A DNA stretch of 64,000 bases from Candidatus Magasanikiibacteriota bacterium (GCA_021648085.1 JAKITS010000001.1:541671-605670), one strand, 5' to 3'. Numbered from the stretch's first letter, positions 3,723 to 37,380 are shown. The notes: generated by a model not told the origin, from the letters alone. Translations and numbers: made by a program.

Positions 3723-5897
3723 ATGATTAGTTCCGTTGAACTGCGTGAATTTTTTGTTTGTGGAACTTATTCAGAGACACAACACTCACTCTTACATATA
3801 AGTGAGCCTGAAAGCCCTGAGGAAAAAGACAAAGGGTATTTTTTTGCTATTGCAGAAATTAGAGAATCTACAAAAAAAGAAATAGAAAAAATTCAAGAAT
3901 TAATAAATGAAATAGAAATACTTTACTATAAAAGTGATGTTGGAAGTCATAGAGAAAACTTTGAAAAAATACTACAAAAAATAAACGAAGACGAAAAATT
4001 TGAAAAATTAAAAAAATCAAATATGGATCTTTTTGTGGCTGTTATGCGTGGGCACAGTATTTCTTTTGCACACAGAGGAACACCAAATGTTTTACTTTTT
4101 CATAATTCACACAACTCACTTCACCGAAAAAAACTTATTGAAAAAGATTTAGAGCAAAACTCAGACAAAATATTTTCCACAGTTGTAGAAGGAAAAGTAC
4201 ACTCTAAAAATTATTTTTATATATCAACCCCAAATGTAAGTGAAGTTTTTTCAAACGATAGAATACAAAAACTTCTCACATCTAGAACTGTAGAACAAAC
4301 AATAAAACACATTCAAAAAGTTTTAGAATCTATGTCAGATGGCTCATCTTACGGTGGAATTATTTGCAAAGTTCTAAACAGTGAAAACCAAATAGAGGAT
4401 GAACACAAAAAAACAGGATCAATCGAATCTATCGAACAGATGATAGACCACGAAAAAAACACACAAGAAACATTATCACCATCTTTTTTCTCAAACAGTA
4501 TAAACGAACTCAAAAAAATATTTTCACCACCTCATTTCAAACAAGACGATGAAAATATAAATTCCCCAAAAGCGAGACATCAAAATCAAAACACATCTAC
4601 AATAAATATGGTTTTGGTTACCACAGGAAAAGCCTTAGTTATAACATTTTTAGCAATATTTAGGATTATAAAATTTATAGCATTATTTACTTATAGACTA
4701 TTTTCTACTATATTTTTTCTTATCACAAAACCAAGTAAGAGAAACGAAACAAAAGAAAAGTGGAGAAAATATATTAACCATAAAAAACACTATTTCAAAA
4801 CAATGTCGATTCTGCACAAAATACTTCTTACACTTTTAATTATTCTTACAGCTACATTCATTGGAAGTATTGTTTTTATGAGAGTACAGACACAGCAAGA
4901 GCTAGAAAGGCAAATTTATGTTGGTCAAATACAAGAAATTATAAATAAACAAATAGAAGCTGAATCCAGTATTATTTATAAAGATGAAAAAACAGCTTTC
5001 AATTTATTAAAAGAAGCTGAAGAAATAATAAATAATCTGCCAAGTGAAAATAAAATTCAAGAGCAGAAAAAAGAAGAGTTAATAGCAGATTTAGATGTAA
5101 TATTTAGAAAACTTCGTAAAATAGAAATTGTAAAAGCAGATATTTTTGCAGAGCTTCCAGACGCTCGCATAAACAAACTAGAATTTATAGACAATATTTT
5201 AATTGCGTACAACAAAGATATTAAAACTTTATACAAAATAAATCTCGGAACAAAACAAATAGAAACACAGGAATACAATGAAACTTTTGATTTTACCCAA
5301 AGCACAGTACCAAAAGAAAATGATAAGATATTATTTTTAGATGATAACAACTCCATAATAGAATACGACAGAAAAACATCTTCCATCATATCTCAAGATA
5401 TTTCTTACCAAAAAGATAATCCCAACATAAGTAATATATTTATTTATAATCAAAGATTATATTCAATAGATATAAATTCTAGTGAAATTTATAAACACAA
5501 CGAGACACAAACAGGCTACGACAAAGGTGCACTTTGGCTAAAGCAAGATGTAGACTTGAGTGACGCTGTAGACTTGGCGATTGATTCTAGTCTTTATGTT
5601 CTAAAGTTAAATGGAGAATTGTTGAAATTTTCTAGCGGAGTTCAAGAGGAATTTTCCATAAATATGATAGATCCAGCGATGGAAGAGCCAACTCAAATGT
5701 GGACATATTCAGATGTGGATGAGATATTTATCCTAGAACCAAAACAAAAAAGAATTGTGATAATAGACAAAGGTGGGGTGCTGTTAAAACAATACACTTC
5801 TCTAGATTGGCAAAATCCAACCAGCATGAGCGTGGACATAGACAATAAGAAATTATATGTGATTGATAGTGGTAAGGTTTATAAGATTAATTTGTAA
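3723..5897 (+). CDS. Large hypothetical membrane protein (N-terminal cytoplasmic domain, two central TM helices, ~350-aa C-terminal extracytoplasmic domain)
   Basis: 724-aa intact ORF; hydrophobic segments around residues 295-375. No family recognised. Confidence 0.55.
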   Translation: MISSVELREFFVCGTYSETQHSLLHISEPESPEEKDKGYFFAIAEIRESTKKEIEKIQELINEIEILYYKSDVGSHRENFEKILQKINEDEKFEKLKKSNMDLFVAVMRGHSISFAHRGTPNVLLFHNSHNSLHRKKLIEKDLEQNSDKIFSTVVEGKVHSKNYFYISTPNVSEVFSNDRIQKLLTSRTVEQTIKHIQKVLESMSDGSSYGGIICKVLNSENQIEDEHKKTGSIESIEQMIDHEKNTQETLSPSFFSNSINELKKIFSPPHFKQDDENINSPKARHQNQNTSTINMVLVTTGKALVITFLAIFRIIKFIALFTYRLFSTIFFLITKPSKRNETKEKWRKYINHKKHYFKTMSILHKILLTLLIILTATFIGSIVFMRVQTQQELERQIYVGQIQEIINKQIEAESSIIYKDEKTAFNLLKEAEEIINNLPSENKIQEQKKEELIADLDVIFRKLRKIEIVKADIFAELPDARINKLEFIDNILIAYNKDIKTLYKINLGTKQIETQEYNETFDFTQSTVPKENDKILFLDDNNSIIEYDRKTSSIISQDISYQKDNPNISNIFIYNQRLYSIDINSSEIYKHNETQTGYDKGALWLKQDVDLSDAVDLAIDSSLYVLKLNGELLKFSSGVQEEFSINMIDPAMEEPTQMWTYSDVDEIFILEPKQKRIVIIDKGGVLLKQYTSLDWQNPTSMSVDIDNKKLYVIDSGKVYKINL

Positions 5898-5947: not shown

Positions 5948-6631
5948 TTATACTTGCAGTTTCGAAAGATCATCGTCGACAAGAGGAAATATATTATAAA
6001 CATAATCCAATTCCCTATCACTCAAATTTTCTTCCAATAGAATATTTACTGCCCACCGTTTCAACTCTTTACTATAATGACCACAACGAACAATTGTAAT
6101 TAGTTCAAATTTTCCAGTTCCAGTTAATTTACCATCTCTAAAAAATCTTTGTTCCAATTCTTTTGTCACTTTTCTAATAAACTTTGGAAAATCACTAGCA
6201 ATGAGACAAAGTAGTCGCAAATAAACATCTTCTGGTTTCTTCATTTTTCTATTTGCAATTCGCTTGCGAAACTCTGGAACACAAGTATAAATAGAAATTA
6301 AATCATAATAAATACTAATATTCTTTTTTGCCTCATTCATAAACACGCGCCAAGCAGATTCACGAATTTCTGGTCTTCTCATATAAAAAACCATATGGTC
6401 AATCCAATACTGATATTCTTTTCCATCTCTTTCTTTGCGTTTAAGAATTTCTTTCCATACAAGCCTTATAAATAAAATATGATCTTGTGCATCTCTAATC
6501 TCTCGATTAAGAGCGCAAATATCAGGTCTTCTTATCAAATAATTTCCATATTTTTCTTCAGAAAACTGACATTGTGTATCCTCTGTATGCATTTTAAATT
6601 CTCCTCTTTGGCTGTAAATGAACGAATACAT
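5948..6631 (-). CDS. Hypothetical protein
   Basis: 227-aa ORF, basic, no recognisable motifs. Convergent with the upstream membrane protein gene. Confidence 0.5.
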   Translation of the reverse strand: MYSFIYSQRGEFKMHTEDTQCQFSEEKYGNYLIRRPDICALNREIRDAQDHILFIRLVWKEILKRKERDGKEYQYWIDHMVFYMRRPEIRESAWRVFMNEAKKNISIYYDLISIYTCVPEFRKRIANRKMKKPEDVYLRLLCLIASDFPKFIRKVTKELEQRFFRDGKLTGTGKFELITIVRCGHYSKELKRWAVNILLEENLSDRELDYVYNIFPLVDDDLSKLQV

Positions 6632-21767: not shown

Positions 21768-24281
21768 ATGATTGAATCTGAACAATTTTTGGAAAATCTG
21801 TCAACACACCTCCGAAACACGATTACTGGCGGATTGACTCTCGCCACCACTTTAAACCATTGTGAGGTTAGTCCAGCTCACCTTCTTTTTGCGCTTGCAG
21901 AAGAGAAAGGTTCTGTTGGGATAGAAATTCTCAAAAAATTAAAAGTTGATAAAAAATTAATTTTTAATCTTCTTTCCATAACTCCAAAAACAGAAAAAGA
22001 TAAAGAAACAAAAAAACCAAAAATTCCAGAACTAAGTGAGACAGCAAAAAGAGCTTTGGAAAAAGCAATGCTTTTGGCTTATGAAGAAGAGCATGTTTAT
22101 GTTGGCACAGAACACCTACTATTTGGACTTGTAAACTGTGAAGATGTAAATATTGAATCCATTCTAAAGCAAGCTGGAGTAAGTATTGAAACAGCTGAAG
22201 AACAAATTGATATAGTTTTGGAAAGTACAAACAAATTTCCAAATTTGGACGATGTAAAAAATACTTTAGAGCAAATTAGTCGTCTTGCAAATTCTAGAGA
22301 TTTTAATAAAAATAAAACAAAAAAAGGAAAAAATAAAAAAAGGAAAAATTCTATACTAGGAGAATTTACAACAGATCTTACTCATAAAAATTCTCAAAAA
22401 AATCTAGATCCTGTAGTTGGTCGCGAACAAGAAATAACTAGAATTATTCACATACTTTCTCGTAGAACAAAAAATAATCCGGTTTTAGTTGGAGAGCCTG
22501 GGGTTGGAAAAACAGCAATTATTGAAGGTCTTGCGAGACGAATTGCAGATGGAGATGTGCCATACAATTTGCGAGGTAAAAAATTACTCTCACTCGATCT
22601 TACACTATTAATTTCTGGAACAATTTACAGAGGAGAGTTTGAGGCAAGACTAAAACAGGTAATAGACGAAATTTCTGCAAATTCAAAATATATTCTTTTT
22701 ATAGATGAGCTCCACAATATAATAGGAACTGGCTCAAACCAAGGAACAATGGATGCAGCAAACATTTTAAAACCAGCACTCGCTCGCGGAAAATTGCGCT
22801 GTATCGGTGCTACCACATTAGATGAATACAAAAAATACATATCTACAGATCCTGCACTAGAACGCAGATTTCAATCTATAGAAATAGATGAGCCAAGTAT
22901 CGAGGAAGCTAAAACAATTCTACACGGAATAAAACCTCATTACGAAAAATTTCATGATGTGGACATTACAGACTCTGCGATAGAAAAAGCTGTGGAATTT
23001 TCAACAAGATTTATTCACGAAAACTTCCTACCAGACAAAGCAATAGACCTAATAGACGAGGCTTGTGCTTTTGTTCGCACAAAATTGAAAAATCCAATAG
23101 ACGAAAAAATTCATAATTTTAAAAAAGAACTTAGTGATTTGAAAGAAGAAAAAAGTAAAGCAATATCACAAGAAAAATTTAAACTTGCCGGAGAATTGAA
23201 AAAATCGGAAAAAGATATTAAAGTAAAAATTAAAAAACTAAAAAAACAAAAATTTAACAAAAAAACTGGAAATCTTCCAAAAGTTGAAGTTGGGCATATT
23301 GCAGAAGTTTTAAGCGCAAGATTAAATATAGAAAAAGAGAATTTACTTGCAGACGACTGGCAAAGAGTAGAAAAAACTTCAAAACAATTGAACCAACACA
23401 TAAAAGGACAGACTCATGTTGTAGAAGAAATAAAGCAAAAACTTAGTCAAAGTTATCTAGGACTTGGAAATAAAAACAAACCACTTGCGTCATTTTTGTT
23501 TGTGGGACCAAGCGGAGTTGGTAAAACTTACACAGCAAAAATACTTGCACAAACACTTTATAACAACAAAAAATCTCTTATCAAACTAGATATGAGTGAA
23601 TTTTCAGAATCACACAGCATTTCAAAAATCCTAGGCTCTCCTGCTGGATATGTTGGGCACGACAGTAGAAATAAATTTACAGAAGCTATCAAAAAAAGAC
23701 CTTATTCTGTAGTACTTTTCGATGAGTTTGACAAAGCTCATCCAGATGTTCGTAAACTACTACTTCAAATTTTGGACGAAGGAGAAATCACAGACAGCTC
23801 CGGAAAAAAAGTAAAATTCAATCATTCTATAATAATTCTAACTTCAAATGTGGGAGCAGAATTATACAAAAACACAGAAATTGGTTTTGGTAAAAATGTA
23901 TCTAAAACACTAGACGAAGAAAAAAGAAGACGAATTCACAATAAAGTAAAAAAATCTTTTGGTGGAGATGTTTTGAGTCGTTTAAATTCTGTTTGTATTT
24001 TCAACCAGCTAAGTCAAAAAAACATAGAGCAGATAATTGAAAAACAAATAATAGACATCAATAAAAAATTGCAAGATAAACGAAAAATAAATTTGGTAGT
24101 AAGTCGTGGTGCTTTAAAAGAATTAGCAAAAAATAAATATTCAGAAGATTTTGGAGCAAGAGATATTGAACGCAAAGTCACTCAGACAATTCAAGAATTA
24201 CTAATAAATGCTCTAAATAAAAAAACAGAACAGGATACATATTCACTACAAATCTCAGAAGGAAAATACGAACTTGTGTAA
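21768..24281 (+). CDS. clpC: ClpC-like AAA+ chaperone ATPase (two AAA modules, Clp_N repeats, IGF ClpP-docking tripeptide)
   Basis: 837 aa; Clp N-domain repeats, Walker A GEPGVGKT and GPSGVGKT, short middle domain, IGFG loop in AAA2. Confidence 0.88.
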   Translation: MIESEQFLENLSTHLRNTITGGLTLATTLNHCEVSPAHLLFALAEEKGSVGIEILKKLKVDKKLIFNLLSITPKTEKDKETKKPKIPELSETAKRALEKAMLLAYEEEHVYVGTEHLLFGLVNCEDVNIESILKQAGVSIETAEEQIDIVLESTNKFPNLDDVKNTLEQISRLANSRDFNKNKTKKGKNKKRKNSILGEFTTDLTHKNSQKNLDPVVGREQEITRIIHILSRRTKNNPVLVGEPGVGKTAIIEGLARRIADGDVPYNLRGKKLLSLDLTLLISGTIYRGEFEARLKQVIDEISANSKYILFIDELHNIIGTGSNQGTMDAANILKPALARGKLRCIGATTLDEYKKYISTDPALERRFQSIEIDEPSIEEAKTILHGIKPHYEKFHDVDITDSAIEKAVEFSTRFIHENFLPDKAIDLIDEACAFVRTKLKNPIDEKIHNFKKELSDLKEEKSKAISQEKFKLAGELKKSEKDIKVKIKKLKKQKFNKKTGNLPKVEVGHIAEVLSARLNIEKENLLADDWQRVEKTSKQLNQHIKGQTHVVEEIKQKLSQSYLGLGNKNKPLASFLFVGPSGVGKTYTAKILAQTLYNNKKSLIKLDMSEFSESHSISKILGSPAGYVGHDSRNKFTEAIKKRPYSVVLFDEFDKAHPDVRKLLLQILDEGEITDSSGKKVKFNHSIIILTSNVGAELYKNTEIGFGKNVSKTLDEEKRRRIHNKVKKSFGGDVLSRLNSVCIFNQLSQKNIEQIIEKQIIDINKKLQDKRKINLVVSRGALKELAKNKYSEDFGARDIERKVTQTIQELLINALNKKTEQDTYSLQISEGKYELV

Positions 24282-24285
24282 AAAA

Positions 24286-24545
24286 TTCTGTCCTTTTCTA
24301 ACTCCCAACCTCCTGAACATTTGAAATTTATGGACTAATTTTTTATAAATATTTATGGTTTTCTGAGAATACAGAAAATAACGAATTTAGCGAACTGCGG
24401 TGAGTTAAATAAATATTTAGAAAAAATTAAGCCATAAATTGTCAACCGTTCGGCACTTTTGGTTACCTTTTGGTGACAAAAGGTAAAGTGAGAAGGATTG
24501 GGTTTTAAATTTAAAGATTTTGTGAGTCGAAGATAAAATTTTTAA
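24286..24545 (+). repeat. SLR family copy A (long form), starts 5 bp after the clpC stop
   Basis: CCTCCTGAACATTTGAAATTTATGGACTAATTTTTTATAAATATTTATGG...GTTCGGCACTTTTGGTTACCTTTTGGTGACAAAAGGTAAAGTGAGAAGG; ends in a degenerate REP remnant GTGAGTCGAAGATAAAAT. Confidence 0.7.
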
Positions 24546-24621: not shown

Positions 24622-24981
24622 TTGTCGGTTAAAATGGATAATACTTCACAAAATTGGGCAGTAGAACTGCAAAAACAAAAAACAAAACTCCAAAATAGTG
24701 GTGCTGATATTCAGGTTGAAAAAGAAAATAATGACTATGAGTTGAATAAAGTAAAAATAGATTTAATAAAATCCGCAGAAGAAAAAGATTTTAACAAAAT
24801 TGCAGAAAATTATAATAAATTGGTAGAGCTTTTTGCAAAAGAAACAGCCTTAAATCTACTAAATTTGGAAAAAAGATTTGGAACTGTAAATGAAATTGTG
24901 ATAAAAAACCAAGCGAAACTATTTACACAGGAATGTTTGGATGTAGCGCAAGCAGTTGATTCAATTTTAGATAGCAGCTAG
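24622..24981 (+). CDS. Hypothetical small protein (probable true start ATG at 24634), bracketed by SLR copies A and B
   Basis: 119-aa ORF (the track start is TTG); coiled-coil-like, no recognisable family. Confidence 0.45.
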   Translation: MSVKMDNTSQNWAVELQKQKTKLQNSGADIQVEKENNDYELNKVKIDLIKSAEEKDFNKIAENYNKLVELFAKETALNLLNLEKRFGTVNEIVIKNQAKLFTQECLDVAQAVDSILDSS

Positions 24982-25014: not shown

Positions 25015-25335
25015 TTGTTCTCTTCCTATCCTAAACCTCTCGAACATTTGAAATTTTTGGACTAATTTTTTATAAATATTTATGGTCCTTTTGAGAATAC
25101 AAAAGGATAGTGAGTGTAGCGAATTGCGGCGAGCCAAATAAATATTTATAAGAAATTAAGCCTAAAATTGTCATTAGTTCGGCGGTTTTAACTACCTTTT
25201 GGCAGCAAAAGGTAAGGTGAGAAAAACTTAGTTTTGAATTTAAATAAAAGTTTTACTCATATATCACGCTTAAGAGATTCTCGTCTGCCGGCGCGCAGGT
25301 CTCACTTTAGTTCGAAATGACAGAAAAAATAAATT
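25015..25335 (+). repeat. SLR family copy B (long form); its 3-prime module abuts the start of gene 25347
   Basis: About 85% identical to copy A over the shared 5-prime and central modules. 3-prime module CTGCCGGCGCGCAGGTCTCACTTTAGTTCGAAATGACAGAAA matches copy 41427. Confidence 0.7.
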
Positions 25336-25346
25336 AAACACAAAGT

Positions 25347-26405
25347 ATGGCAACTGCCGTAACAGCAGGACAACTTAAAAAAAGTGGGAGTCTTACGCGT
25401 TCTATTTTTGATAGTGGTGAATTTTTGCCAATTGTTGCTGTAGCTTTGAGGAGTATGGGTGCTGGTGGAGCAATTGCAGATGTGTTATCGAATATGAAAG
25501 GTTTTAGCATGAAAGATTTACTCGGAACAACAAAAACAATTGCAAAACAATATACTCCTGCGATGGCACAAAAAAAAATAATGAATGCTGGAAATAAAAT
25601 AAAGGATACTGGCAAAAAAATTAGTGATTCTGGAGCTTTCAAAGCCATAAAACAAAAAGCTGGTTTTGGAGACCACAGACCAAAACAAACAACTGATCCT
25701 GATTTTGCAACAGATGAACAACTTAGTCCAGAATTTGGAGGTGGAGACGAAAAAGAAGAAGAACAAGAAGAATCATCTTTTACAGAAGAACCGGATGAAA
25801 ATGAGGAAGATGAAGAAGATACTCCAGGAGAAAAACCATACCAGCCATTTTCTAAGCCAAAACCAGAAGAAGAAAAAGAAGAGCTAGACAAAAAAAAGAA
25901 AGAAAAACAAGAAAAAGAAAAAACTCCAAAAGAGAGCGATCAGGAAAGATCTAAAAAATTTCAACAAAGTAAAAACCAACAAAGATTAAGATCTAAAAAA
26001 GGAAATGGAAAAGAAGATGTTAAAAAGAGGAAAGGAGGAAAAGAAAAGAAGGAAAAGAAAGAGAAAGAAGGAAAAAAAGAATTTACAAATATAGAATTAA
26101 TAGTTTGGCTACCTTGTGCTATTGCAGCAGACATAGCATCTATTATTCCTTATGTTGGATTAGTTATTAGCTGGCCTTTTGGTATATCCTTTTTTATATT
26201 TAAATGGGTAAAAAAATTTAATAAATCTACCACAGTAATGGTTAGTGGTTTAGATGTAATTTTAGAAGGCTTTTTCTCTACTATTCCAGCGAATACAGCC
26301 GATGTGCTTATAACTTATTCTATTTCAAAAGCTAAAAAATATGGAGTTAAAATCCCTGATGCAGAAAAAAAACTAAAAAAAGTTACAGGCGCAAAACCAA
26401 AATAA
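25347..26405 (+). CDS. Hypothetical membrane protein with basic N-domain, highly acidic then lysine-rich low-complexity linker, and two C-terminal TM helices
   Basis: 352 aa; EEEQEESSFTEEPDENEEDEED followed by KKKEKQEKEK...KEKKEKKEKEGKK, then hydrophobic IELIVWLPCAIAADIASIIPYVGLVISWPFGISFFIF. First gene of a same-strand cluster. Confidence 0.6.
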   Translation: MATAVTAGQLKKSGSLTRSIFDSGEFLPIVAVALRSMGAGGAIADVLSNMKGFSMKDLLGTTKTIAKQYTPAMAQKKIMNAGNKIKDTGKKISDSGAFKAIKQKAGFGDHRPKQTTDPDFATDEQLSPEFGGGDEKEEEQEESSFTEEPDENEEDEEDTPGEKPYQPFSKPKPEEEKEELDKKKKEKQEKEKTPKESDQERSKKFQQSKNQQRLRSKKGNGKEDVKKRKGGKEKKEKKEKEGKKEFTNIELIVWLPCAIAADIASIIPYVGLVISWPFGISFFIFKWVKKFNKSTTVMVSGLDVILEGFFSTIPANTADVLITYSISKAKKYGVKIPDAEKKLKKVTGAKPK

Positions 26406-26471
26406 TAAAATTTAAAAAATAAGACTAAAGAGTGTGTTATAATTTAATTACTACATATCACAAATAAAAAT

Positions 26472-27689
26472 ATGGACAAAAAGCGTATAATTTTCATAGC
26501 GATATTTTCAGTAGCTGTAATAGGAATAGGATATCTTATGTATTCTATTTTTTGGAAATCTTCTGAACCAACAATAATACCACCAGATAAAACTGTCACC
26601 GATACCACAAAATTACCGTCTGGAGGATCTTTTGCACAAAGCGATGACAAGGAAATAAATGACACAACCACACCTGAAGTTGGAGGTGCAATAGTAATAA
26701 GACCTACAGAATTGCCAGATTCTGGAATAAGAGAGGTTACAAGAGTTGTTGCAGAAAATCTCATAAACCCAAAGATAAACTCAAATGGCGATGTAAATTT
26801 TTATAATACAATAGACGGAAAATTTTACACTTCACAAAATGGAGAAACAGTAGAAATGAGTGAACAAGTATTTTTTAATGTAGAAAATGTCGTATGGTCT
26901 GGAGTAAACAACGAATCCATCATCGAATATCCGGACGGCTCAAATATTTACTATAACTTTGATACAGAAGTACAAAGAACACTTCCAAAACATTGGGAAG
27001 ACTTTTCTTTTTCCAAACAAGGTGACCAAATAGTTGCAAAAAGTATAGGAATTTCACCAGAAAATAGATGGCTCGTGAGTAGCGATGCTGATGGAAATAA
27101 TGTAACTTTAATAGAATCACTCGGAGAAAATGCTGATAAAGTAACCGTAGACTGGTCACCAAACAAACAAATAATAGGAGTAAGTTTAGCTGGTGGAGTC
27201 GCAGGTGCAAACAGACAAGAAGTATTTTTTGTTGGTCAAAATGGAGAAAATTTTAAATCCATGATTGTAGAAGGAAGAGGTTTTGAATCTATTTGGTCGC
27301 CAAGTGGAGATAAGCTTTTATACAGTGTTTACAGTACACGAAGCCAGTACAAACCAGAATTATGGGTAGTGAGTAGTAAGGTTGGTAATATAGGCTCAAA
27401 CAGAAAAATGCTCGGCATAAATACTTGGGCAGACAAATGTGCATTTGGAGACGAAAGAAACCTTTACTGTGCAGTTCCAAACAACCTTCCAGTTGGTAGT
27501 GGTTTTAGTTCAGATTTAGCAAACACTGCCACATACACATTGATAAGAATAGATACACAAACAACACTTCAAACACCACTCCAAATGGATGAAATCCACA
27601 GCATCGACAAAATATTTTTATCCAATGATGGTGGTACGCTTTATTTTACAGACAAATTTGAATCAGGTTTATTTAGTATTTCAATATGA
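26472..27689 (+). CDS. Membrane-anchored TolB-like / PD40-type beta-propeller protein
   Basis: 405 aa; N-terminal TM helix; repeated WSPxxxxI/L blades (VDWSPNKQIIGVSL, IWSPSGDKLLYSV). Confidence 0.7.
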   Translation: MDKKRIIFIAIFSVAVIGIGYLMYSIFWKSSEPTIIPPDKTVTDTTKLPSGGSFAQSDDKEINDTTTPEVGGAIVIRPTELPDSGIREVTRVVAENLINPKINSNGDVNFYNTIDGKFYTSQNGETVEMSEQVFFNVENVVWSGVNNESIIEYPDGSNIYYNFDTEVQRTLPKHWEDFSFSKQGDQIVAKSIGISPENRWLVSSDADGNNVTLIESLGENADKVTVDWSPNKQIIGVSLAGGVAGANRQEVFFVGQNGENFKSMIVEGRGFESIWSPSGDKLLYSVYSTRSQYKPELWVVSSKVGNIGSNRKMLGINTWADKCAFGDERNLYCAVPNNLPVGSGFSSDLANTATYTLIRIDTQTTLQTPLQMDEIHSIDKIFLSNDGGTLYFTDKFESGLFSISI

Positions 27690-28309
27690 TAAAAACTAGA
27701 CATCTTTTTTTAGTTTTCATTCCAGCAATTGCTGTAGTTTCTTTTGCTTTATTTGTGCGAATAGTGCAATACGAACCAGTTTATGACAGAAATAAACCGC
27801 TAGACATTCCTCGACAAATGGCACAACTTTTCCCAGAAGATCCAATTTTAGGAAATAAGAAATCCCCAATTACATTAGTTGCTTTTGAAGATTTTAGCTG
27901 TCCTGCTTGCAGCACCCAATCAAAAATGCTAGATGATATATTGCTACAATACCCAAACAGTATAAAAATTATTTGGAAAAGTATAAGTACACATAAAAGT
28001 GAATTGGCAAATAATTATGCATATTGTGCAAACAAACAAAGAAAGTTTGCTGAATTCAAAAATCTTGCTTTTGCAAATCAAAACAATTTAAATATAGATA
28101 TTTTAAATATAATTTCTGAAACAATAGAATTAAACGAAACTAAATTAAACAAATGTTTAGCTTCTGGCGAAGCTGAAATTTATAATCAAAAAAATAGAGA
28201 CTTGGCAACTATTTTGCATGTGCAAGCTGTACCAACTTTTTTCTTGAACGATGTGCAACTTCAAACACCAAAATCTAGAGATGAATGGAAAAATGTTTTA
28301 GGACTATAA
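27686..28309 (+). CDS. DsbA-like thiol:disulfide oxidoreductase (thioredoxin fold, CPAC active site), membrane-anchored
   Basis: 207 aa; N-terminal TM helix; FEDFSCPACSTQ CxxC motif; start overlaps the upstream stop (ATGA). Confidence 0.75.
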   Translation: MIKTRHLFLVFIPAIAVVSFALFVRIVQYEPVYDRNKPLDIPRQMAQLFPEDPILGNKKSPITLVAFEDFSCPACSTQSKMLDDILLQYPNSIKIIWKSISTHKSELANNYAYCANKQRKFAEFKNLAFANQNNLNIDILNIISETIELNETKLNKCLASGEAEIYNQKNRDLATILHVQAVPTFFLNDVQLQTPKSRDEWKNVLGL

Positions 28310-28310
28310 T

Positions 28311-30392
28311 ATGAAAAATATTTCAAAAAATTATTTAATTTTTTCTTTTGTAATAGGATTAATTTTATTATTTTTTTCTTTTGGAATTGCGAAAGCTAGT
28401 TTAGATTATGAAGTTTATAGAATAAATCCAGATTTCCGAATTACACAAACAGCTAATACTGAAGCTCCCATAAAACAACTAGGTATTGTTAGTGTTGCGG
28501 ATAGTATAAGAAATACACTACCCGCACAATTTTGTGCTTGTAATGTAGAAGGAGCCAGTGGCCGATACACAATCACCGAACTTTCACAAAAAAGAGAAGA
28601 TTGTAGAACAGCAACTGTTTTTGAACCGCCAACAAGTGGAGGACTTTTGACAAATTGTAGTGCAAATAGTGATAGGAGCTCTTGTTTGTGTGATACAAAC
28701 ATAATATCCCCACTTACAAATTCTGAATCTCGTGCAGAAGTAGAACTAACAAGATTAAGAGATAAGAGTAAAGGAGGGGCATTACTACCACTTACAGACT
28801 CTAGATGTTCTACAAAATTAAATAATACACAATTTAGCTCTTGTCGTAATTCAAGTGCTATTATTAATACATGCACGTGTACTAGTTCTGAAACAAATAG
28901 AGTTTTAGAAAGCATCACTGAAGATATAACTTTATTAGGTTTTTCACCTGGATCATCGAGTTGTAATGATACTTATATTTTAAAAGATAAACCAAAAGTT
29001 TCAGTAAATAATTGTGAATGGATTGGTTTAGATGTGTCGCCAAAAACATCCACACAATCTTTTATTCAAAATAATCTTAGCGAAATAGAAGCAATTTTAA
29101 ACAAACCACAACTTCAAATAAAAATACCTGGATTGAGTTTTTCTGGAGAAGGTTTGAAAGCAGTTGAAGACGATGACGGTTCAAAATATTTTGTAGTTCC
29201 ATTTTTGGGAGAATATATTTCCGCAGTTTACAAATTTGCGGTTGCAGCTGGAAGTATTTTTGCTGTAATTATGATTATTGTGGCAGGGCTTCAGTGGATG
29301 ATACCTGGAAATATAACATCTTCTGGAGGTGGAGATAGTAAGGAAACAATAAATAAAGCTAAAAAAAGAATAGCCGGAGCTGTAACTGGTTTAATATTAC
29401 TAGTTGGTTCTTATACACTACTTTACACAATTAACCCAAACTTAGTTGAATTTAATGGATTGAAGGTTCAATTTGTAAATCCTGAGCCGTTTCCAGCTTG
29501 GATACCATTAGGTGATCATTTGGATTTAGACTCATTAGGTCTTGATGGTAAATTTACAGGATCTATAGGTGCCCCTCCAAAATTAAGTGGTGATATAGCA
29601 CAATGTATTTATAAAAACTTTTTAGATGGAAAAAACATTGGTGATGAACCAGATATAAAAAGAATTGACATACTTAATGGATTAGGAACCTCTAAAATTA
29701 ATATCAACGCTATAAGTGCGTGGGAAAAGGTTTCCAAAGAAATTTTAGCTAGTACAGATGTCGAGATACAAGGTTATTTGAGATATATGCGCGATTATAA
29801 AGATGGGAAAGTGCCTGACTTAACAGGTAATAATGATGGTAGAGGAATTATTTCGTCAGTAACTGGACGTATAGGTGTAAAAAGAAAAACAGGTGAAGTT
29901 ACTGAAAATATACTCCAAGATACTCATGTTTTAGGTTTAACTATTGATATAATGACTAGAAGTAATTGGGATATAAGATTAAAAGAATATACAGGTAGTA
30001 GAAAAATAAACCATACGGATTACTGTAATAAATATCAAAAAACTTTAGATAAATTTAAAAATGGAGATTTTAATACTGATGCTGGATTTGACTTAACTAC
30101 TGATCCATATAAAATGTATGATAGAATACAAAATAAAATAAATGGATGTTTTAATGTTTTTAATTTAAACTTAACTACAGGCCATCACGAACCTTTTACT
30201 TCATTTCCTGATGAATGGATTAGAATTTTCGAAACAAACAATTTTTATTGGGGAGGATGGGCCTGGGGAGACCCATTCCGAACAGATTCAATGCATTTTG
30301 AATATTATGGACCGGAATGTATTAAATATAGAAAAGAGAGAGATTTGCAAATTTTAGAAAAAAAATTAAGACAATTTACAAACTCTAGATAA
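28311..30392 (+). CDS. Multidomain envelope protein: signal/TM anchor, 12-Cys extracytoplasmic domain, two-TM hairpin, C-terminal M15/LAS-family zinc peptidase domain
   Basis: 693 aa; Cys-rich residues ~70-230; hydrophobic hairpin AVYKFAVAAGSIFAVIMIIVAGLQWMI...IAGAVTGLILLVGSYTLLYTI; QDTHVLGLTIDI matches the VanY/M15 SxHxxGxAxD motif and WGGWAWGDPFRTDSMHFEY matches the C-terminal metal-ligand motif. Starts 2 bp after the DsbA gene. Confidence 0.7.
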   Translation: MKNISKNYLIFSFVIGLILLFFSFGIAKASLDYEVYRINPDFRITQTANTEAPIKQLGIVSVADSIRNTLPAQFCACNVEGASGRYTITELSQKREDCRTATVFEPPTSGGLLTNCSANSDRSSCLCDTNIISPLTNSESRAEVELTRLRDKSKGGALLPLTDSRCSTKLNNTQFSSCRNSSAIINTCTCTSSETNRVLESITEDITLLGFSPGSSSCNDTYILKDKPKVSVNNCEWIGLDVSPKTSTQSFIQNNLSEIEAILNKPQLQIKIPGLSFSGEGLKAVEDDDGSKYFVVPFLGEYISAVYKFAVAAGSIFAVIMIIVAGLQWMIPGNITSSGGGDSKETINKAKKRIAGAVTGLILLVGSYTLLYTINPNLVEFNGLKVQFVNPEPFPAWIPLGDHLDLDSLGLDGKFTGSIGAPPKLSGDIAQCIYKNFLDGKNIGDEPDIKRIDILNGLGTSKININAISAWEKVSKEILASTDVEIQGYLRYMRDYKDGKVPDLTGNNDGRGIISSVTGRIGVKRKTGEVTENILQDTHVLGLTIDIMTRSNWDIRLKEYTGSRKINHTDYCNKYQKTLDKFKNGDFNTDAGFDLTTDPYKMYDRIQNKINGCFNVFNLNLTTGHHEPFTSFPDEWIRIFETNNFYWGGWAWGDPFRTDSMHFEYYGPECIKYRKERDLQILEKKLRQFTNSR

Positions 30393-30412: not shown

Positions 30413-31744
30413 ATGAAAATAAAAACTTTATTCACATGCTCGCATTGCGACGCCCAGTACCAGAAATGGACTGGGCGTTGTTTGGAATGTGGTAAATGGG
30501 GTTCTGTAGAACAAAAAACCACAAACTCAGTGCAAGAGCAAAAAAATAAAATCACAGCAGTCCCAACAAAAACCACAAAATTGTCAGAAATAAAAGGAAC
30601 ATCAATTCAAAGATTTAGCACAACCATCTCTGAAGTTGATCGTGTACTTGGAGGCGGAATTGTACCAGGAGTTTTGATTTTGCTTGGCGGAGAGCCAGGA
30701 ATTGGTAAATCCACCCTATCCATTCAGCTGGCAAACATTGTTCCAAATACAATTTATTTTTCTGGAGAAGAATCTATTGGACAGATTAAATTGCGTGCAG
30801 ACAGACTTGGGATAACTTCCAGCACTTTGGAATTAGCAAATGAAACAAGTGTAGAAATAATCTGTGCAACCATAAAAAATAAAAAACCAAAACTTGCTGT
30901 AATAGATTCTATACAAACAATTTATTCAAGCGAATCACAGAGTGAACTTGGGAGTGTAAACCAAATAAAAGCTTGCACAACAAAATTGCTGGAAGTGGCA
31001 AAAAGCACAAACACAGCAATCTGCATTATTGGGCATGTCACAAAAGATGGAAATGTTGCCGGACCAAAAACTTTGGAACATTTGGTGGATACAGTTTTGT
31101 ATTTGGAAGGAGACAGATACCACGCATATAGAATTTTACGAACAATCAAAAATAGATTTGGATCTACAAATGAAATTGGAATTTTTGAAATGAAAAACGA
31201 AGGTTTGTGCGAGGTAAAAAATGCTTCTGCAACTTTTATAGAAGATCGCGGTGAATCCACTTCTGGAAGTGTAATCACCTGCCTTCTCGAAGGCACACGA
31301 CCAATTTTGGTAGAAGTTCAAGCACTTGTAAACAAAACATCTTTTGGATATCCAGTCCGCAAATCTAGTGGTTTCGATTTAAACAGACTTCATGTTTTGA
31401 TAGCGGTTTTACAAAAAAGAGCAGGTTTAAATTTGTCTGAATATGATGTTCACTTGAATATTGTAGGTGGTGTTCAAGCCAAAGAACCAGCAGTAGACCT
31501 TGCAGTCTGCCTTGCGATTGCAAGCTCGTTTAAAGACAAAGAATTGGGAAGTGATTTGGTAGCTTTTGGCGAAGTTGGACTGGGCGGAGAAATAAGAAAT
31601 ATAAGCCAAACCGAAAAAAGAATAAAAGAATGCGAAAATCTCGGCATGAAAAGAGCTATAATAGCAAAGAGCAAAAAAAGTGTTCAAGGAGGTGTGAAAT
31701 TAATAGAGGTCAAAAATATTCAGGAATTGATAAGGCATACTTGA
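30413..31744 (+). CDS. radA: DNA repair protein RadA (Sms)
   Basis: 443 aa; N-terminal C4 zinc finger (CSHCDAQYQKWTGRCLECGKW), RecA-like Walker A GGEPGIGKSTL, KNRFG motif, Lon-like C-domain. Confidence 0.95.
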   Translation: MKIKTLFTCSHCDAQYQKWTGRCLECGKWGSVEQKTTNSVQEQKNKITAVPTKTTKLSEIKGTSIQRFSTTISEVDRVLGGGIVPGVLILLGGEPGIGKSTLSIQLANIVPNTIYFSGEESIGQIKLRADRLGITSSTLELANETSVEIICATIKNKKPKLAVIDSIQTIYSSESQSELGSVNQIKACTTKLLEVAKSTNTAICIIGHVTKDGNVAGPKTLEHLVDTVLYLEGDRYHAYRILRTIKNRFGSTNEIGIFEMKNEGLCEVKNASATFIEDRGESTSGSVITCLLEGTRPILVEVQALVNKTSFGYPVRKSSGFDLNRLHVLIAVLQKRAGLNLSEYDVHLNIVGGVQAKEPAVDLAVCLAIASSFKDKELGSDLVAFGEVGLGGEIRNISQTEKRIKECENLGMKRAIIAKSKKSVQGGVKLIEVKNIQELIRHT

Positions 31745-31776
31745 GGTAGCAAATTAAGCAGATTAAGTAAAAAACA

Positions 31777-31806
31777 AAAAACAGACCAATTAGTCTGTTT
31801 TTTGTT
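31777..31806. terminator. Bidirectional terminator AAAACAGACCAATTAGTCTGTTTTTT between convergent radA and guaB
   Basis: 5-bp stem CAGAC/GTCTG plus flanking A/T runs. Confidence 0.6.
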
Positions 31807-31841
31807 TAAATAATTAAATAAAAATATTAATTAATACTTTT

Positions 31842-36252: not shown

Positions 36253-37380
36253 TTAAACACTAAACTCTTCTAATTCAACATCAACCAATTCTTCTAAAAC
36301 AGAGCCTAATTCATCCAACCCTAATCCTTCAGAAAAATCAGAAACAGTTAATGCCAGTTTAATATCAACTTGTCTTACAATATCTTCACTTTCTTGGCGT
36401 ATCTTTTCTAATTCACCTGCTATTTCTCCTGACATTTTTTCCAATATTTTATCAACTTCATCACTAATTTCTTGAATATCTCCAACCAACTTTCGTACAT
36501 CTTCCATAATTTTCAAATCTGGCAAAGTAGTTTGCTGAAAAACCTCTAAAGATACTCTTGTTTTACTAATATACTCTTCTTTGTCAATTTTAAAACCTCT
36601 TAAAATAACCTGCTCTCTTAAAAGATGTTCATTATATTTATTAACCGCATAAATAGCCAAATTTATATGTTTAGGAATCTTTCTGTTTAAGCGTTGGTAT
36701 TCATTTTTCCGCACCGAAAGAACTTCATTCAAACGAACAACCTCACTTAAATTAAACTCAATTCTTTTATATTGTTTTTGATAGTCGCTATCATTACCAA
36801 ACAAATCACTCTCTAACTCATTAAGTCTTTTTTTATTATGCTCAATAGCAAAATCATAATAATTTTTATCAAACTCATCTTTAAATTTATTTGGATTAAA
36901 TGATACCGCACAAAAAACTCCATTTGGTTTAAATTCTTTATATTCAAAATTATTTTCACATGACACATGTACAAACTTTTGTATATTTTCTTTGTTATAA
37001 AAGTTTAACAAAATAAAAAAAATAAAAACCAACAAAACAAAAGATAAGACAAAAGATAAAATACTTTGAAAAATTACAAGAAAAATAGGTAGATAAAAAC
37101 AAAAAAAAGGAATTATAGATAAAATCAATATCTTATTTCTAATATCATTTTTGTTTAAAATTAAAAACATATTATTTTTTTTAGATTGTTTTTCTATTTT
37201 TTTTAATATTTCCAATCTTTGATTTTCTTGTCTTACTATTTTTAATTCATAAGAAGCTTTTTCTTCTTTTACTTGATCTTCATATTTCTTTTTTGCCTTT
37301 TCAAACTCTTCATCATAAATATTACGGCGTATAGATACAAAATCTAACCACAATCTTTTTTTTAATGTATCGATTTTCAC
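36253..37380 (-). CDS. Hypothetical membrane protein with central TM hairpin and coiled-coil flanks (GTG start)
   Basis: 375 aa; hydrophobic ILILSIIPFFCFYLPIFLVIFQSILSFVLSFVLLVFIFFILLNF. Confidence 0.55.
   Translation of the reverse strand: MKIDTLKKRLWLDFVSIRRNIYDEEFEKAKKKYEDQVKEEKASYELKIVRQENQRLEILKKIEKQSKKNNMFLILNKNDIRNKILILSIIPFFCFYLPIFLVIFQSILSFVLSFVLLVFIFFILLNFYNKENIQKFVHVSCENNFEYKEFKPNGVFCAVSFNPNKFKDEFDKNYYDFAIEHNKKRLNELESDLFGNDSDYQKQYKRIEFNLSEVVRLNEVLSVRKNEYQRLNRKIPKHINLAIYAVNKYNEHLLREQVILRGFKIDKEEYISKTRVSLEVFQQTTLPDLKIMEDVRKLVGDIQEISDEVDKILEKMSGEIAGELEKIRQESEDIVRQVDIKLALTVSDFSEGLGLDELGSVLEELVDVELEEFSV

What the first reader, a model, noticed from the sequence alone, without database searches (positions are those of the whole stretch)
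25347..30392. Tight four-gene extracytoplasmic operon: charged two-helix protein, TolB-like propeller, DsbA-like oxidoreductase, cysteine-rich LAS/M15 peptidase
Four same-strand genes with 67-bp, -4-bp and +1-bp junctions are all predicted membrane-anchored or secreted.
- A protein with a polyacidic then polylysine linker and two C-terminal helices.
- An N-anchored PD40/TolB-type beta-propeller.
- A CPAC thioredoxin-fold DsbA-like protein.
- A 693-aa protein with a 12-cysteine extracytoplasmic domain, a two-helix membrane hairpin and a C-terminal zinc peptidase domain (QDTHVLGLTIDI and DSMHFEY match VanY/M15 LAS motifs).
The adjacency of a dedicated disulfide oxidoreductase to a disulfide-rich surface hydrolase is a coherent functional link. 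The operon sits just downstream of the repeat-bracketed cassette and is the main non-housekeeping block in the window. In a reduced-genome, possibly episymbiotic bacterium this is a plausible cell-wall remodelling or host-cell-wall-attacking module.
Basis: partly seen in the sequence, partly recalled or inferred. Interest (0 to 1): 0.65.

Follow-up and report, generated by a model that had tools for sequence, protein, structure and literature searches.

The report
Swappable cell-wall cutter on membrane hairpin
A gene cluster kept in the same place in a whole group of ultrasmall (CPR) bacteria encodes a membrane-anchored, disulfide-rich cell-wall-cutting enzyme whose cutting domain is swapped for a different enzyme type even between near-identical relatives. 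This makes it a good candidate for how these bacteria deal with a cell wall, probably that of their host.

Summary
Four tightly packed + strand genes lie at 25347-30392 in a Candidatus Magasanikbacteria (CPR) genome.

- **g3:** a DsbA-like thioredoxin with a CPAC motif.
- **g2:** an N-anchored beta-propeller of about seven blades.

1. The g4 hairpin is a VirB2-like "T4SS_pilin" domain (PF18895).
2. The unit is larger. The order clpC-g0-g1-g2-g3-g4(x1-2)-radA holds in about 80 Magasanikbacteria species.
3. The M15 domain is only one of about 20 unrelated, interchangeable C-terminal domains at this locus. Others include SLT, VanY, Amidase_2, C39-like, M23, NlpC/P60, CHAP and GDSL.

Pairs with about 95% identical flanking DNA differ by a clean replacement of the C-terminal domain. 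The break falls exactly after the hairpin motif (NPxLVxF) and at the stop codon. No immunity gene accompanies the swap.

My best reading is a clade-core envelope module that displays an exchangeable wall hydrolase, oxidised by the DsbA-like partner, and probably aimed at host peptidoglycan. I rate it a new variant of known kinds. The function is inferred, not shown.

The parts
24634..24981 (+). g0: conserved ~115-aa cytoplasmic helical protein of unknown family, and the first gene of the conserved array after clpC
   Evidence: A positional ortholog is present in L001 and L003-L005, and in 44 ORFs across the loci. NCBI start is at 24634, locus tag L3J07_02845. No Pfam or PDB family was found.
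25347..26405 (+). g1: protein with no signal peptide, an acidic then Lys-rich low-complexity region, and a C-proximal hydrophobic membrane hairpin (about residues 249-290, nt ~26091-26216)
   Evidence: ORF and sequence. In 76 positional orthologs the architecture is conserved but the sequence is very divergent. Only sub-threshold Pfam hits were found.
26472..27689 (+). g2: N-terminal TM helix (residues 3-28), disordered linker (37-78), then a beta-propeller (90-405) with two invariant Cys (C323, C333)
   Evidence: AF2 gives pLDDT 84.1 with 28 strands, which fits seven blades. Foldseek matches tricorn, oligogalacturonate lyase, DPP-IV and WD40 propellers at E 1e-10 to 1e-8. PD40 scores 17.2 bits here, below the GA of 20.9, but 27.2 and 23.9 bits in two homologs. 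Identity across the clade is 51-76%. The family has 1933 members and was found in 321 species genomes.
27686..28309 (+). g3: N-anchored DsbA-like thioredoxin-fold oxidoreductase, with active site C72-P-A-C75 (nt 27899-27910) and a cis-Pro loop VPT
   Evidence: Thioredoxin_4 scores 78.4 bits (GA 23.2) and DSBA 30.3 bits (GA 25.6). In 80 orthologs the CxxC cysteines and the VPT loop are conserved while the dipeptide varies. NCBI names it 'DsbA family protein'.
28311..30392 (+). g4: whole modular protein made of signal peptide, Cys-rich ectodomain, VirB2-like hairpin core and M15 peptidase
28395..29078 (+). g4 N-terminal ectodomain (residues 29-256) with 12 Cys and no known family. It is shared only with the closest relatives.
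   Evidence: Cys positions are. Homologs are P0004 and P0005 only. AF2 pLDDT is below 50. Pfam finds nothing.
29079..29492 (+). g4 conserved core (residues 257-394). It comprises a juxtamembrane motif KPxxxIKIPGLxFS...PFLGEYI, helices 297-330 and 343-374 joined by a Lys/Arg-rich loop, and the exit motif YTINPxLVxF..LKV. This is the VirB2-like T4SS_pilin hairpin.
   Evidence: PF18895 scores 28.3 bits (GA 26.6) over residues 301-366. This is the only region shared with all g4 homologs. The consensus is and the helices. The core gives 9895 hits at E<=1e-3 among 1.84 billion representatives. It is the only copy in the window.
29583..30389 (+). g4 C-terminal LAS/M15 (VanY-like) zinc peptidase domain (residues 425-693). 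Its features are H539-x6-D546 (nt 29925-29948), D659-x-x-H662 (nt 30285-30296) and four invariant Cys (432, 572, 613, 670).
21768..24281 (+). clpC: conserved upstream boundary gene of the array
   Evidence: The translation is. Pfam architecture was seen for the orthologs in L001 and L003-L005. clpC is upstream in 49 of 49 loci.
30413..31744 (+). radA: conserved downstream boundary gene, starting 20 nt after the g4 stop
   Evidence: radA is downstream in 43 of 50 loci. The g4-radA gap has a median of 15 nt.

Best explanation
**What it is.** This is a clade-core envelope module of Magasanikbacteria. Its output is a disulfide-stabilised peptidoglycan hydrolase held at the cell surface by a VirB2-like two-helix membrane hairpin.

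**How it works (inferred).**
1. g4 is exported by Sec, and its signal peptide is cleaved after AKA at about residue 28.
2. The hairpin inserts with its Lys/Arg-rich loop in the cytoplasm, so the Cys-rich N-domain and the C-terminal enzyme both face outward.
3. The membrane-anchored DsbA-like g3 oxidises the ectodomain cysteines of g4 and the conserved Cys pair of g2.
4. The highly conserved N-anchored propeller g2 acts as the constant extracytoplasmic partner, as scaffold or regulator. It may bind the conserved juxtamembrane cap of the hairpin.
5. g0 and g1 are the cytoplasmic and membrane-side components.

**The payload in this genome** is a VanY/M15-type zinc peptidase that cuts the peptidoglycan stem peptide. 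Across the clade the payload is a replaceable cassette. Recombination between the conserved hairpin exit motif (NPxLVxF) and the gene's 3' end swaps in unrelated wall-degrading domains.

**Likely target.** Three things argue that it is a foreign (host) wall at the contact zone rather than one fixed housekeeping step:
- turnover is fast even between near-identical relatives;
- the payload repertoire looks like that of interbacterial effectors;
- no immunity gene is present.

**Shown versus inferred.** The domain identities, topology signals, synteny and cassette replacement are shown. The DsbA-substrate relation, the role of g2, and the host as target are inferred.
For: **Domain identities.**
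- g3 matches Thioredoxin_4 and DSBA above their cut-offs and has CxxC plus a cis-Pro loop.
- The g4 hairpin matches PF18895 above its cut-off. So do 69 of 90 family representatives.
- The g4 C-domain is M15/LAS.
- g2 is a propeller.

**Topology.** g4 has an N-terminal signal-like segment, and the loop IPGNITSSGGGDSKETINKAKKRIAG carries five Lys/Arg. All 16 Cys lie outside the hairpin.

**Conserved unit.** The order clpC-g0-g1-g2-g3-g4-radA holds in L001-L085.

**Payload diversity.**
- The 93 C-terminal parts (92 from loci in the other genomes plus the window's own) fall into 20 BLAST-unrelated families.
- Pfam counts among them are SLT 17, VanY 16, Amidase_2 11, C39_2 8, M15_4 7, M23 7, GDSL 6, NlpC/P60 4, and GH18, CHAP and glucosaminidase 1 each.
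- An independent metagenome-wide set gives the same picture.
- N-terminal extensions sometimes carry GDSL, endonuclease/exonuclease/phosphatase or metallophosphoesterase domains.

**Cassette replacement.**
- L075 and L076 are 95% identical in DNA up to nt 6311, which is the end of the core, and again from 6 nt after the stop codon.
- Between those points one encodes an SLT domain and the other a glucosaminidase-like domain.
- At protein level the N-extension is 92% identical, the core 93%, and the C-domain shows no match.
- The same breakpoints appear in L016/L019 (VanY versus C39_2), L001/L006 and L073/L078.

**No room for an immunity gene.** The g4-radA gap has a median of 15 nt and is 60 nt or less in 45 of 55 loci.
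Against: - There is no experimental or expression evidence of any kind.
- The hydrolase is tethered to the producer's own membrane, so it is geometrically closest to the producer's own wall.
- VanY/M15B enzymes can be trimming carboxypeptidases rather than lytic enzymes, and bond specificity cannot be read from sequence.
- The locus is strictly core and sits among housekeeping genes, which also fits an essential self-directed function.
- No VirB4, VirB6 or other secretion ATPase lies within about 25 kb upstream or 34 kb downstream, so no delivery machine is linked.
- The g2-g4 and g3-g4 interactions are inferred only from conserved adjacency.
- The AF2 model of g4 is poor outside the C-domain (mean pLDDT 57.9).
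Confidence: 0.5

Rival explanations
1. Self-directed wall remodelling. On this reading the module is the clade's housekeeping autolysin or space-maker. The tethered hydrolase opens the cell's own peptidoglycan, either for division and cell separation or for inserting surface machines such as type IV pili or a T4SS (a VirB1-like role). g2 acts as its regulator. Any bond-cleaving enzyme would serve, so cassettes drift and are exchanged without target-driven selection.
For: - The locus is core and single-copy, lies between clpC and radA, and has housekeeping neighbours.
- The enzyme is tethered next to the cell's own wall.
- No immunity gene is present, as expected for a regulated self enzyme.
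- From the literature: different bacteria use amidases, NlpC/P60, CHAP or glucosaminidases for separation, and Gram-positive T4SSs use membrane-anchored multi-domain hydrolases (PrgK, TraG, CwlT), as cited in PMC12102498.
Against: - Unrelated catalytic classes are replaced between genomes whose g2 is 93-99% identical. That is unusual for a fixed housekeeping step.
- Some payloads are not wall enzymes in any obvious way, namely GDSL lipase/esterase, endonuclease/exonuclease/phosphatase and metallophosphoesterase.
- 21 of 71 loci carry two different hairpin-hydrolase genes in tandem.
Confidence: 0.3
2. Pilus-borne or processed pro-pilin. On this reading the VirB2-like hairpin is a true T4SS-type pilin. 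It is assembled by a VirB4 machine encoded elsewhere. The flanking domains are either displayed on the filament as a minor 'modular pilin', or cleaved off at the conserved motifs on either side of the hairpin. In that case the hydrolase acts in cis as the missing VirB1 function.
For: - The PF18895 match is above the cut-off, and one family member also touches TrbC/VirB2 PF04956.
- VirB2-like pilins are widespread in Patescibacteria and, in Saccharibacteria, essential. Most genomes that have them lack a VirB1 (PMC12102498; PMC10633639).
- In class ABY1, T4SS loci often include radA and recG.
- Strongly conserved motifs bracket the hairpin.
- From memory, not tested here: TrbC and VirB2 are matured by cleavage at both ends.
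Against: - No VirB4, VirB6 or VirB3 gene lies in the 64-kb window.
- Ectodomains of 230 to 300 aa on both ends of every subunit are hard to fit into a VirB2-type helical polymer.
- No cleavage site or maturation peptidase has been identified.
- The family name 'pilin' is an annotation, not a tested function.
Confidence: 0.12
3. There is no functional unit. The four genes are neighbours by chance or by genome compaction, and g3 is a general oxidoreductase unrelated to g4.
For: - CPR genomes are compact, and many unrelated genes overlap by 4 nt.
- g3-type DsbA proteins could serve all exported proteins.
- The promoter and terminator scans were uninformative.
Against: - The order and adjacency hold across about 80 species whose g2 proteins are only about 50% identical.
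- g2 and g3 overlap by 4 nt in 24 of 74 loci.
Confidence: 0.03

Closest known systems
VirB2/TrbC-like 'T4SS_pilin' proteins of Patescibacteria (Pfam PF18895; Quinonero-Coronel et al. 2025, PMC12102498; Wang et al. 2023, PMC10633639)
   Same: The two-helix hydrophobic hairpin of g4 matches PF18895 above the gathering score. It occurs in the same phylum. In class ABY1 such genes are reported near radA and recG.
   Different: - Known members are described as small pilins in arrays next to virB4. Here the hairpin is the middle of a 693-aa protein with large ectodomains at both ends.
- It has an extended conserved juxtamembrane cap.
- No virB4 lies nearby.
- It is paired with a propeller and a DsbA-like protein.
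- I found no mention of hydrolase fusions or DsbA in that paper by term search.
LAS / MEROPS M15 zinc peptidases (VanY, VanXYc, LdcB, Peptidase_M15_4)
   Same: g4 has the H-x6-D and D-x-x-H metal and catalytic motifs. Pfam M15_4 hits are found in its close homologs. The fold matches VanYB, LdcB and VanXYc.
   Different: - The two motifs are about 120 residues apart because of a long insertion.
- The domain has four conserved Cys.
- g4 itself scores just below the Pfam cut-off (24.2 bits against 25).
- It is fused to a membrane hairpin.
- Its bond specificity is unknown.
Membrane-anchored peptidoglycan hydrolases of Gram-positive T4SSs (VirB1 analogues: PrgK of pCF10, TraG of pIP501, CwlT of ICEBs1)
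   Same: These are membrane-tethered, modular wall hydrolases of monoderm bacteria linked to T4SS-type components. They use SLT, CHAP, NlpC/P60 and M23 domains, the same classes seen at this locus.
   Different: - Those enzymes have a single N-terminal anchor and sit inside conjugation operons with VirB4.
- This one is anchored by a VirB2-like hairpin at a chromosomal housekeeping locus.
- Its catalytic class changes between close relatives.
Polymorphic toxin systems (CdiA-CT, Rhs, LXG/T7SS, MafB)
   Same: Both have a conserved N-terminal or central module, a short conserved demarcation motif, then unrelated C-terminal enzymatic domains exchanged by recombination. Breakpoints fall exactly at the motif.
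   Different: - No cognate immunity gene follows. The g4-radA gap has a median of 15 nt.
- Payloads are mainly wall hydrolases rather than nucleases or pore-formers.
- The protein is predicted to stay membrane-anchored.
- No dedicated secretion system is linked.
DsbA/BdbD-type oxidoreductases dedicated to surface appendage proteins (BdbDC for ComGC in Bacillus subtilis; TrbB and TraF of F-type T4SS)
   Same: A membrane-associated thioredoxin-fold CxxC protein is encoded next to the exported Cys-containing proteins it plausibly oxidises. The named examples come from my own knowledge.
   Different: - No DsbB, BdbC or VKOR partner was seen in the window.
- The substrate relation is inferred from adjacency only.
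TolB (Tol-Pal system)
   Same: Both are extracytoplasmic beta-propellers with PD40-type repeats.
   Different: - g2 is anchored by an N-terminal TM helix.
- It lacks TolB's N-terminal alpha/beta domain.
- It has about seven blades (28 strands). TolB has six, from my own knowledge.
- No TolA, TolQ, TolR or Pal context is present, and the organism is a monoderm-type CPR bacterium.

Membership tests
Peptidase M15 / LAS zinc peptidases | Zn-binding His and Asp in an H-x6-D motif (consensus SxHxxGxAxD) | tested here: met
   g4 has D-T-H539-V-L-G-L-T-I-D546. The His and Asp are invariant in the 9-sequence family alignment A6.
Peptidase M15 / LAS zinc peptidases | Third Zn ligand His, preceded by a catalytic acid (D/E-x-x-H) | tested here: met
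   D659-S-M-H662-F-E-Y. D, H, F, E and Y are all invariant in A6.
Peptidase M15 / LAS zinc peptidases | Profile HMM match above the curated cut-off | tested here: inconclusive
   g4 scores 21.2 bits as full length and 24.2 bits as the isolated domain, against a GA of 25. Eight homologs that are 35-51% identical over the domain score 25.0-36.3 bits. The PDB profile search gives only a weak hit to YodJ, E 0.27.
Peptidase M15 / LAS zinc peptidases | LAS fold | tested here: met
Peptidase M15 / LAS zinc peptidases | Zn-dependent cleavage of a peptidoglycan stem-peptide bond | not testable with these tools
   This needs enzyme assays on muropeptides.
DsbA-like thioredoxin-fold oxidoreductases | Thioredoxin fold with a CxxC active site and a cis-Pro loop | tested here: met
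   Thioredoxin_4 scores 78.4 bits (GA 23.2) and DSBA 30.3 bits (GA 25.6). C72-P-A-C75 and the V-P-T loop are conserved in 80 orthologs.
DsbA-like thioredoxin-fold oxidoreductases | Extracytoplasmic location and a re-oxidising partner (DsbB or VKOR) | tested here: inconclusive
   An N-terminal hydrophobic anchor is present. No DsbB or VKOR was recognised among the window ORFs scanned, but small ORFs and the rest of the genome were not searched.
T4SS pilin (PF18895, VirB2/TrbC-like) | Two-helix hydrophobic hairpin matching the family profile | tested here: met
   PF18895 scores 28.3 bits (GA 26.6) over residues 301-366. AF2 places helices at 297-330 and 343-374. 69 of 90 family representatives match.
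T4SS pilin (PF18895, VirB2/TrbC-like) | Small protein of about 100 aa, encoded with VirB4 and other T4SS genes | tested here: not met
   g4 is 693 aa. No VirB4-, VirB6- or VirB3-like gene lies in the 64-kb window.
T4SS pilin (PF18895, VirB2/TrbC-like) | Polymerises into a pilus | not testable with these tools
   This needs microscopy or biochemistry.
TolB | N-terminal alpha/beta domain plus a six-bladed propeller, within a Tol-Pal context | tested here: not met
   The model shows a TM helix, a disordered linker and a propeller of about seven blades only. The best fold matches are generic propellers. No tol or pal genes lie nearby.
PD40 beta-propeller repeat proteins | PD40 repeat profile match and a propeller fold | tested here: met
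   The propeller fold is confirmed. The PD40 profile is below the cut-off in g2 itself, at 17.2 bits against a GA of 20.9. It is above the cut-off in orthologs P0037 (27.2 bits) and P0065 (23.9 bits).
Polymorphic toxin systems | Conserved module followed by unrelated C-terminal domains exchanged at a fixed boundary | tested here: met
   The 93 proteins carry 20 unrelated C-domain families. Breakpoints fall at the end of the core and at the stop codon in four close pairs.
Polymorphic toxin systems | Cognate immunity gene immediately downstream | tested here: not met
   The g4-radA gap has a median of 15 nt and is 60 nt or less in 45 of 55 loci. In L075/L076 the replaced segment ends at the stop codon.

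The most novel reading that the evidence does not exclude
Magasanikbacteria, and perhaps many other CPR bacteria, carry a previously undescribed type of polymorphic effector locus that lacks an immunity gene.

- A VirB2-like membrane hairpin with a fixed exit motif (NPxLVxF) serves as a universal carrier and recombination handle for interchangeable wall-, lipid- and nucleic-acid-degrading cassettes.
- The cassettes are matured by a dedicated DsbA and positioned by a conserved propeller.
- The cassette carried determines which host cell walls the episymbiont can breach, so the locus would be a host-range determinant.
Probability: 0.3. Interest if true: 0.8.

Novelty: new variant of a known kind. 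Interest (0 to 1): 0.62.

Why it matters
How CPR/Patescibacteria attach to hosts, feed on them and choose them is largely unknown, and most of their envelope proteins are annotated as hypothetical.

This locus has four useful properties:
- it is universal in one large class;
- it is built from recognisable parts;
- it combines a strictly conserved chassis (propeller, DsbA, hairpin) with a fast-swapping enzymatic payload;
- it sits at a fixed, easily found chromosomal address between clpC and radA.

That makes it a concrete, testable candidate for a host-interaction or wall-breaching device. It is also a convenient marker locus for strain-level diversification in metagenomes.

The result also shows that many proteins counted as 'VirB2-like pilins' in Patescibacteria surveys (PF18895 hits) are in fact large enzyme fusions. 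This affects how T4SS gene counts in this phylum should be read.

Tried and rejected
- **Single-sequence phmmer of g4 against PDB.** Nothing meaningful was found.
- **Exact look-up of g4 in the contig index.** The protein is not on record.
- **NCBIfam on g0-g4.** It gave only a sub-threshold thioredoxin lipoprotein hit for g3.
- **g0.** No Pfam or PDB family was found. The profile hits only designed helical bundles.
- **g1.** The Pfam hits (DUF2207_C, Ndc1_Nup) are low-complexity artefacts.
- **A linked T4SS.** None is present. The 724-aa ORF (3723-5897) and the 375-aa ORF (36253-37380) have no Pfam hit, and I saw no P-loop motif when reading their translations.
- **Phage endolysin origin of the M15 cassette.** tblastn against 50,697 phage records found no match.
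- **Promoter and terminator scans.** They found no more sites than shuffled sequence, so operon limits could not be set this way.
- **Rfam on the repeats flanking g0.** No family was found.
- **TolB orthology of g2.** Rejected on domain content.
- **The idea that the cluster is an accessory island.** Rejected, because it is core and syntenic across the clade.

Full report
**1. What is in the sequence.**
The four ORFs exist as described: g1 25347-26405 (352 aa), g2 26472-27689 (405 aa), g3 27686-28309 (207 aa) and g4 28311-30392 (693 aa), all on the + strand. They are separated by a 66-nt spacer, a 4-nt overlap and a 1-nt spacer.

- The exact proteins are on record for a Candidatus Magasanikbacteria MAG on a 984-kb contig, as L3J07_02850 to L3J07_02865. 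All are 'hypothetical' except g3, named 'DsbA family protein'.
- The window is AT-rich, about 29-39% GC.
- The other large genes are housekeeping: dnaE, pheST, rseP-like M50 protease, phosphoglucomutase, clpC, radA, IMPDH, recG, LytR-CpsA-Psr, der, pth, dprA, topA, relA, aspS, a second class-II (D/K/N-type) aminoacyl-tRNA synthetase and secY.
- No VirB4-like or other secretion ATPase is present. Two unannotated ORFs of 724 and 375 aa had no Pfam hit, and I saw no P-loop motif when reading their translations.

**2. The individual products.**

*g3* is a clear DsbA-like thioredoxin.
- Thioredoxin_4 scores 78.4 bits and DSBA 30.3 bits, both above their cut-offs.
- It has an N-terminal hydrophobic anchor, C72-P-A-C75 and a VPT cis-Pro loop.
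- In 80 orthologs the two cysteines and the loop are conserved while the CxxC dipeptide varies.

*g2* models with confidence (pLDDT 84.1, pTM 0.72).
- It consists of a TM helix (residues 3-28), a disordered linker (37-78) and a beta-propeller with 28 strands, which fits seven blades.
- Foldseek finds generic propellers: tricorn, oligogalacturonate lyase, DPP-IV and WD40.
- PD40 is below threshold in g2 itself but above it in orthologs.
- It is therefore a PD40-class propeller. It is not a TolB ortholog, because it has no TolB N-domain and no Tol-Pal context.
- It is the best conserved member of the cluster, at 51-76% identity, with two invariant Cys.

*g1* has no signal peptide.
- It has an acidic then Lys-rich low-complexity region and a hydrophobic stretch near the C-terminus.
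- Most of the 76 positional orthologs share this architecture (71 of 76 have the hydrophobic stretch, typically 35-50 aa) but barely any sequence.
- Its bulk is therefore probably cytoplasmic.

*g4* has four parts.
- A signal-peptide-like N-terminus ending in AKA.
- A 12-Cys domain (residues 29-256) with no known family and a poor model.
- A conserved core (257-394).
- A C-terminal domain (about 425-693).

**3. The g4 C-terminal domain is LAS/M15.**
- Pfam Peptidase_M15_4 scores 24.2 bits on the isolated domain, against a cut-off of 25.
- Eight homologs that are 35-51% identical across the domain score 25.0-36.3 bits.
- In their alignment H539, D546 (H-x6-D), D659 and H662 (D-x-x-H) are invariant, together with R, F, E, Y and four Cys.
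g4 itself is just under the Pfam cut-off, and bond specificity is unknown.

**4.
- Residues 301-366 match PF18895 'T4SS_pilin' at 28.3 bits, above the cut-off of 26.6.
- This VirB2/TrbC-like family is abundant in Patescibacteria and essential in a Saccharibacterium (PMC12102498; PMC10633639).
- All g4 homologs share only residues 257-394.
- The core consensus is KPxxxIxIPGLxFS...YLxIPFLGEYIxAxYKY, then helix, a Lys/Arg-rich loop and a second helix, then GSYTILYTINPxLVxFxxLKV.
- The charged loop and the distribution of Cys place both large domains outside the cell.
- Searching the core against 1.84 billion representatives gives 9895 hits at E<=1e-3 and 2092 at E<=1e-10. The top 150 range from 173 to 937 aa, and nearly all are well above pilin size.

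**5. The unit is larger, and it is core to the clade.**
- Neighbourhoods of g4 homologs show clpC, a ~115-aa protein (g0), a g1-like protein, g2, g3, one or two hairpin proteins, then radA.
- A scan of one genome per species with a g2 profile found 321 genomes. The best 80 are almost all Magasanikbacteria, although many record titles wrongly say 'uncultured Gammaproteobacteria'.
- My own ORF and HMM pass over these loci gave the following:
  - g3 is adjacent to g2 in 74 of 79 loci;
  - a core protein lies within 1.5 kb in 68 of 71;
  - clpC is upstream in 49 of 49;
  - radA is downstream in 43 of 50;
  - two tandem core genes occur in 21 of 71.
In the closest relative, clpC, g0 and g1 are packed with gaps of 36 and 1 nt. 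The two ~230-nt repeats flanking g0 in this genome are therefore local insertions.

**6. The payload is a swappable cassette.**
- Pfam on the 93 C-terminal parts gives SLT 17, VanY 16, Amidase_2 11, Peptidase_C39_2 8, M15_4 7, M23 7, GDSL 6, M15 6, NlpC/P60 4, and GH18, CHAP and glucosaminidase 1 each.
- BLAST clustering gives 20 unrelated families. The window's M15_4 type has only 5 members.
- Sharing a family does not follow relatedness. Among pairs with 90-100% identical g2, only 2 of 7 share a C-domain family.
- L075 and L076 give the clearest case.
  - Their DNA is 95% identical up to nt 6311, which is exactly the end of the core, and again from 6 nt after the stop codon.
  - The segment between encodes an SLT domain in one and a glucosaminidase-like domain in the other.
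  - At protein level the N-extension is 92% identical, the core 93%, and the C-domain has no match.
- L016/L019 (VanY versus C39_2), L001/L006 (unknown versus Amidase_2) and L073/L078 break at the same two points.
- N-terminal extensions vary too. A few carry GDSL, endonuclease/exonuclease/phosphatase, metallophosphoesterase or a second M15_4 domain.
- An independent set of 90 metagenome-wide representatives gives the same repertoire.
- radA starts a median of 15 nt after the last core gene, so there is no room for an immunity gene.

**7. How it most likely works.**

*Shown:*
- the domain identities;
- the signals for an outward-facing topology;
- conserved co-location of a DsbA-like protein and a propeller with Cys-rich hairpin-hydrolase proteins;
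- recombinational replacement of the catalytic domain at a fixed motif.

*Inferred:*
- g3 oxidises the ectodomains of g4 and g2;
- g2 is the constant partner of the conserved hairpin cap;
- g0 and g1 act on the cytoplasmic side;
- the enzyme works on peptidoglycan at the surface.

I favour a foreign (host) wall as the target, with confidence of about 0.5 in the whole statement. The reasons are that unrelated catalytic classes replace each other between near-identical genomes, that the payload list resembles interbacterial effector repertoires, and that tandem pairs with different payloads are common.

The main rival, at about 0.3, is a self-directed autolysin or space-maker. It is favoured by the core, housekeeping-embedded location, by the tethering next to the cell's own wall, and by the lack of an immunity gene.

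A pilus-borne or processed pro-pilin is possible, at about 0.12, but there is no linked VirB4.

**8. Comparison with known systems and novelty.**
Each part belongs to a known family: DsbA-like, PD40 propeller, PF18895 hairpin and M15 peptidase.

The closest system-level analogues are the VirB2-like pilins of Patescibacteria, the membrane-anchored VirB1-type hydrolases of Gram-positive T4SSs, and polymorphic toxins. This locus differs from each:
- the hairpin is embedded in a large enzyme fusion with no VirB4 nearby;
- the anchor is a hairpin, and the catalytic class is not fixed;
- there is no immunity gene and no secretion system.

Term searches in the most relevant papers found no mention of hairpin-hydrolase fusions, of the DsbA and propeller partners, or of cassette exchange. 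That is absence of evidence in a limited library. I rate the finding as a new variant of a known kind, with interest 0.62.

Noticed in passing
window 24289-24515 and 25016-25244: Two copies of a ~230-nt direct repeat, 78-85% identical, bracket g0. Each copy has a long internal hairpin (32-nt arms, ~52-nt loop) and a second short hairpin. These are the only two copies in the window, and no Rfam family matches. The repeats are absent from the closest relative, where clpC, g0 and g1 are tightly packed. They are therefore local insertions, either MITE-like elements or a structured RNA.
   Followed up: partly
loci L006, L008-L010, L012 and many others (record titles): Many contigs that carry this Magasanikbacteria-type locus, with CPR-typical neighbours, are titled 'uncultured Gammaproteobacteria bacterium' (one 'Methanosarcinales archaeon') in the genome collection. 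The titles look like placeholder or wrong taxonomy in TPA MAG submissions.
   Followed up: no
window 3723-5897 (+): A 724-aa ORF has no Pfam hit at E<=0.001. Read by eye from its translation, it appears to have a polar N-terminal half, hydrophobic segments around residues 300-390, and a C-terminal half with repeat-like motifs suggestive of beta-strands. It may be another membrane-anchored surface protein of unknown function.
   Followed up: no
L004, L005, L010, L024, L028, L032, L034, L054 and others (21 of 71 loci): The hairpin-hydrolase gene is duplicated in tandem, and where I checked (for example L034, L054, L004, L028 and L051) the two copies carry different C-terminal families. For example, L034 and L054 each have one copy in the SLT-type BLAST family and one in the VanY-type family. 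L024 has an extra 360-aa ORF between the two copies.
   Followed up: partly
N-terminal extensions of g4-type proteins in the loci (alignment A7): Many N-terminal extensions share a small Cys-rich module with consensus C..C..CE.S...C.C...C..YG...W.C.DG...YC. It gives weak hits to EB, defensin-like and colipase families. The window's own 12-Cys domain does not obviously match it.
   Followed up: no
L080, downstream of g3: In this locus g3 is followed by a single very large ORF of about 1743 aa that my core HMM did not match. It may be a different or highly divergent payload protein at the same position.
   Followed up: no
window 31772-31807: A strong hairpin of 16 pairs flanked by T/A runs lies between the convergent radA and IMPDH genes. 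It is the only convincing terminator-like site near the cluster. This fits transcription running from the cluster through radA.
   Followed up: no
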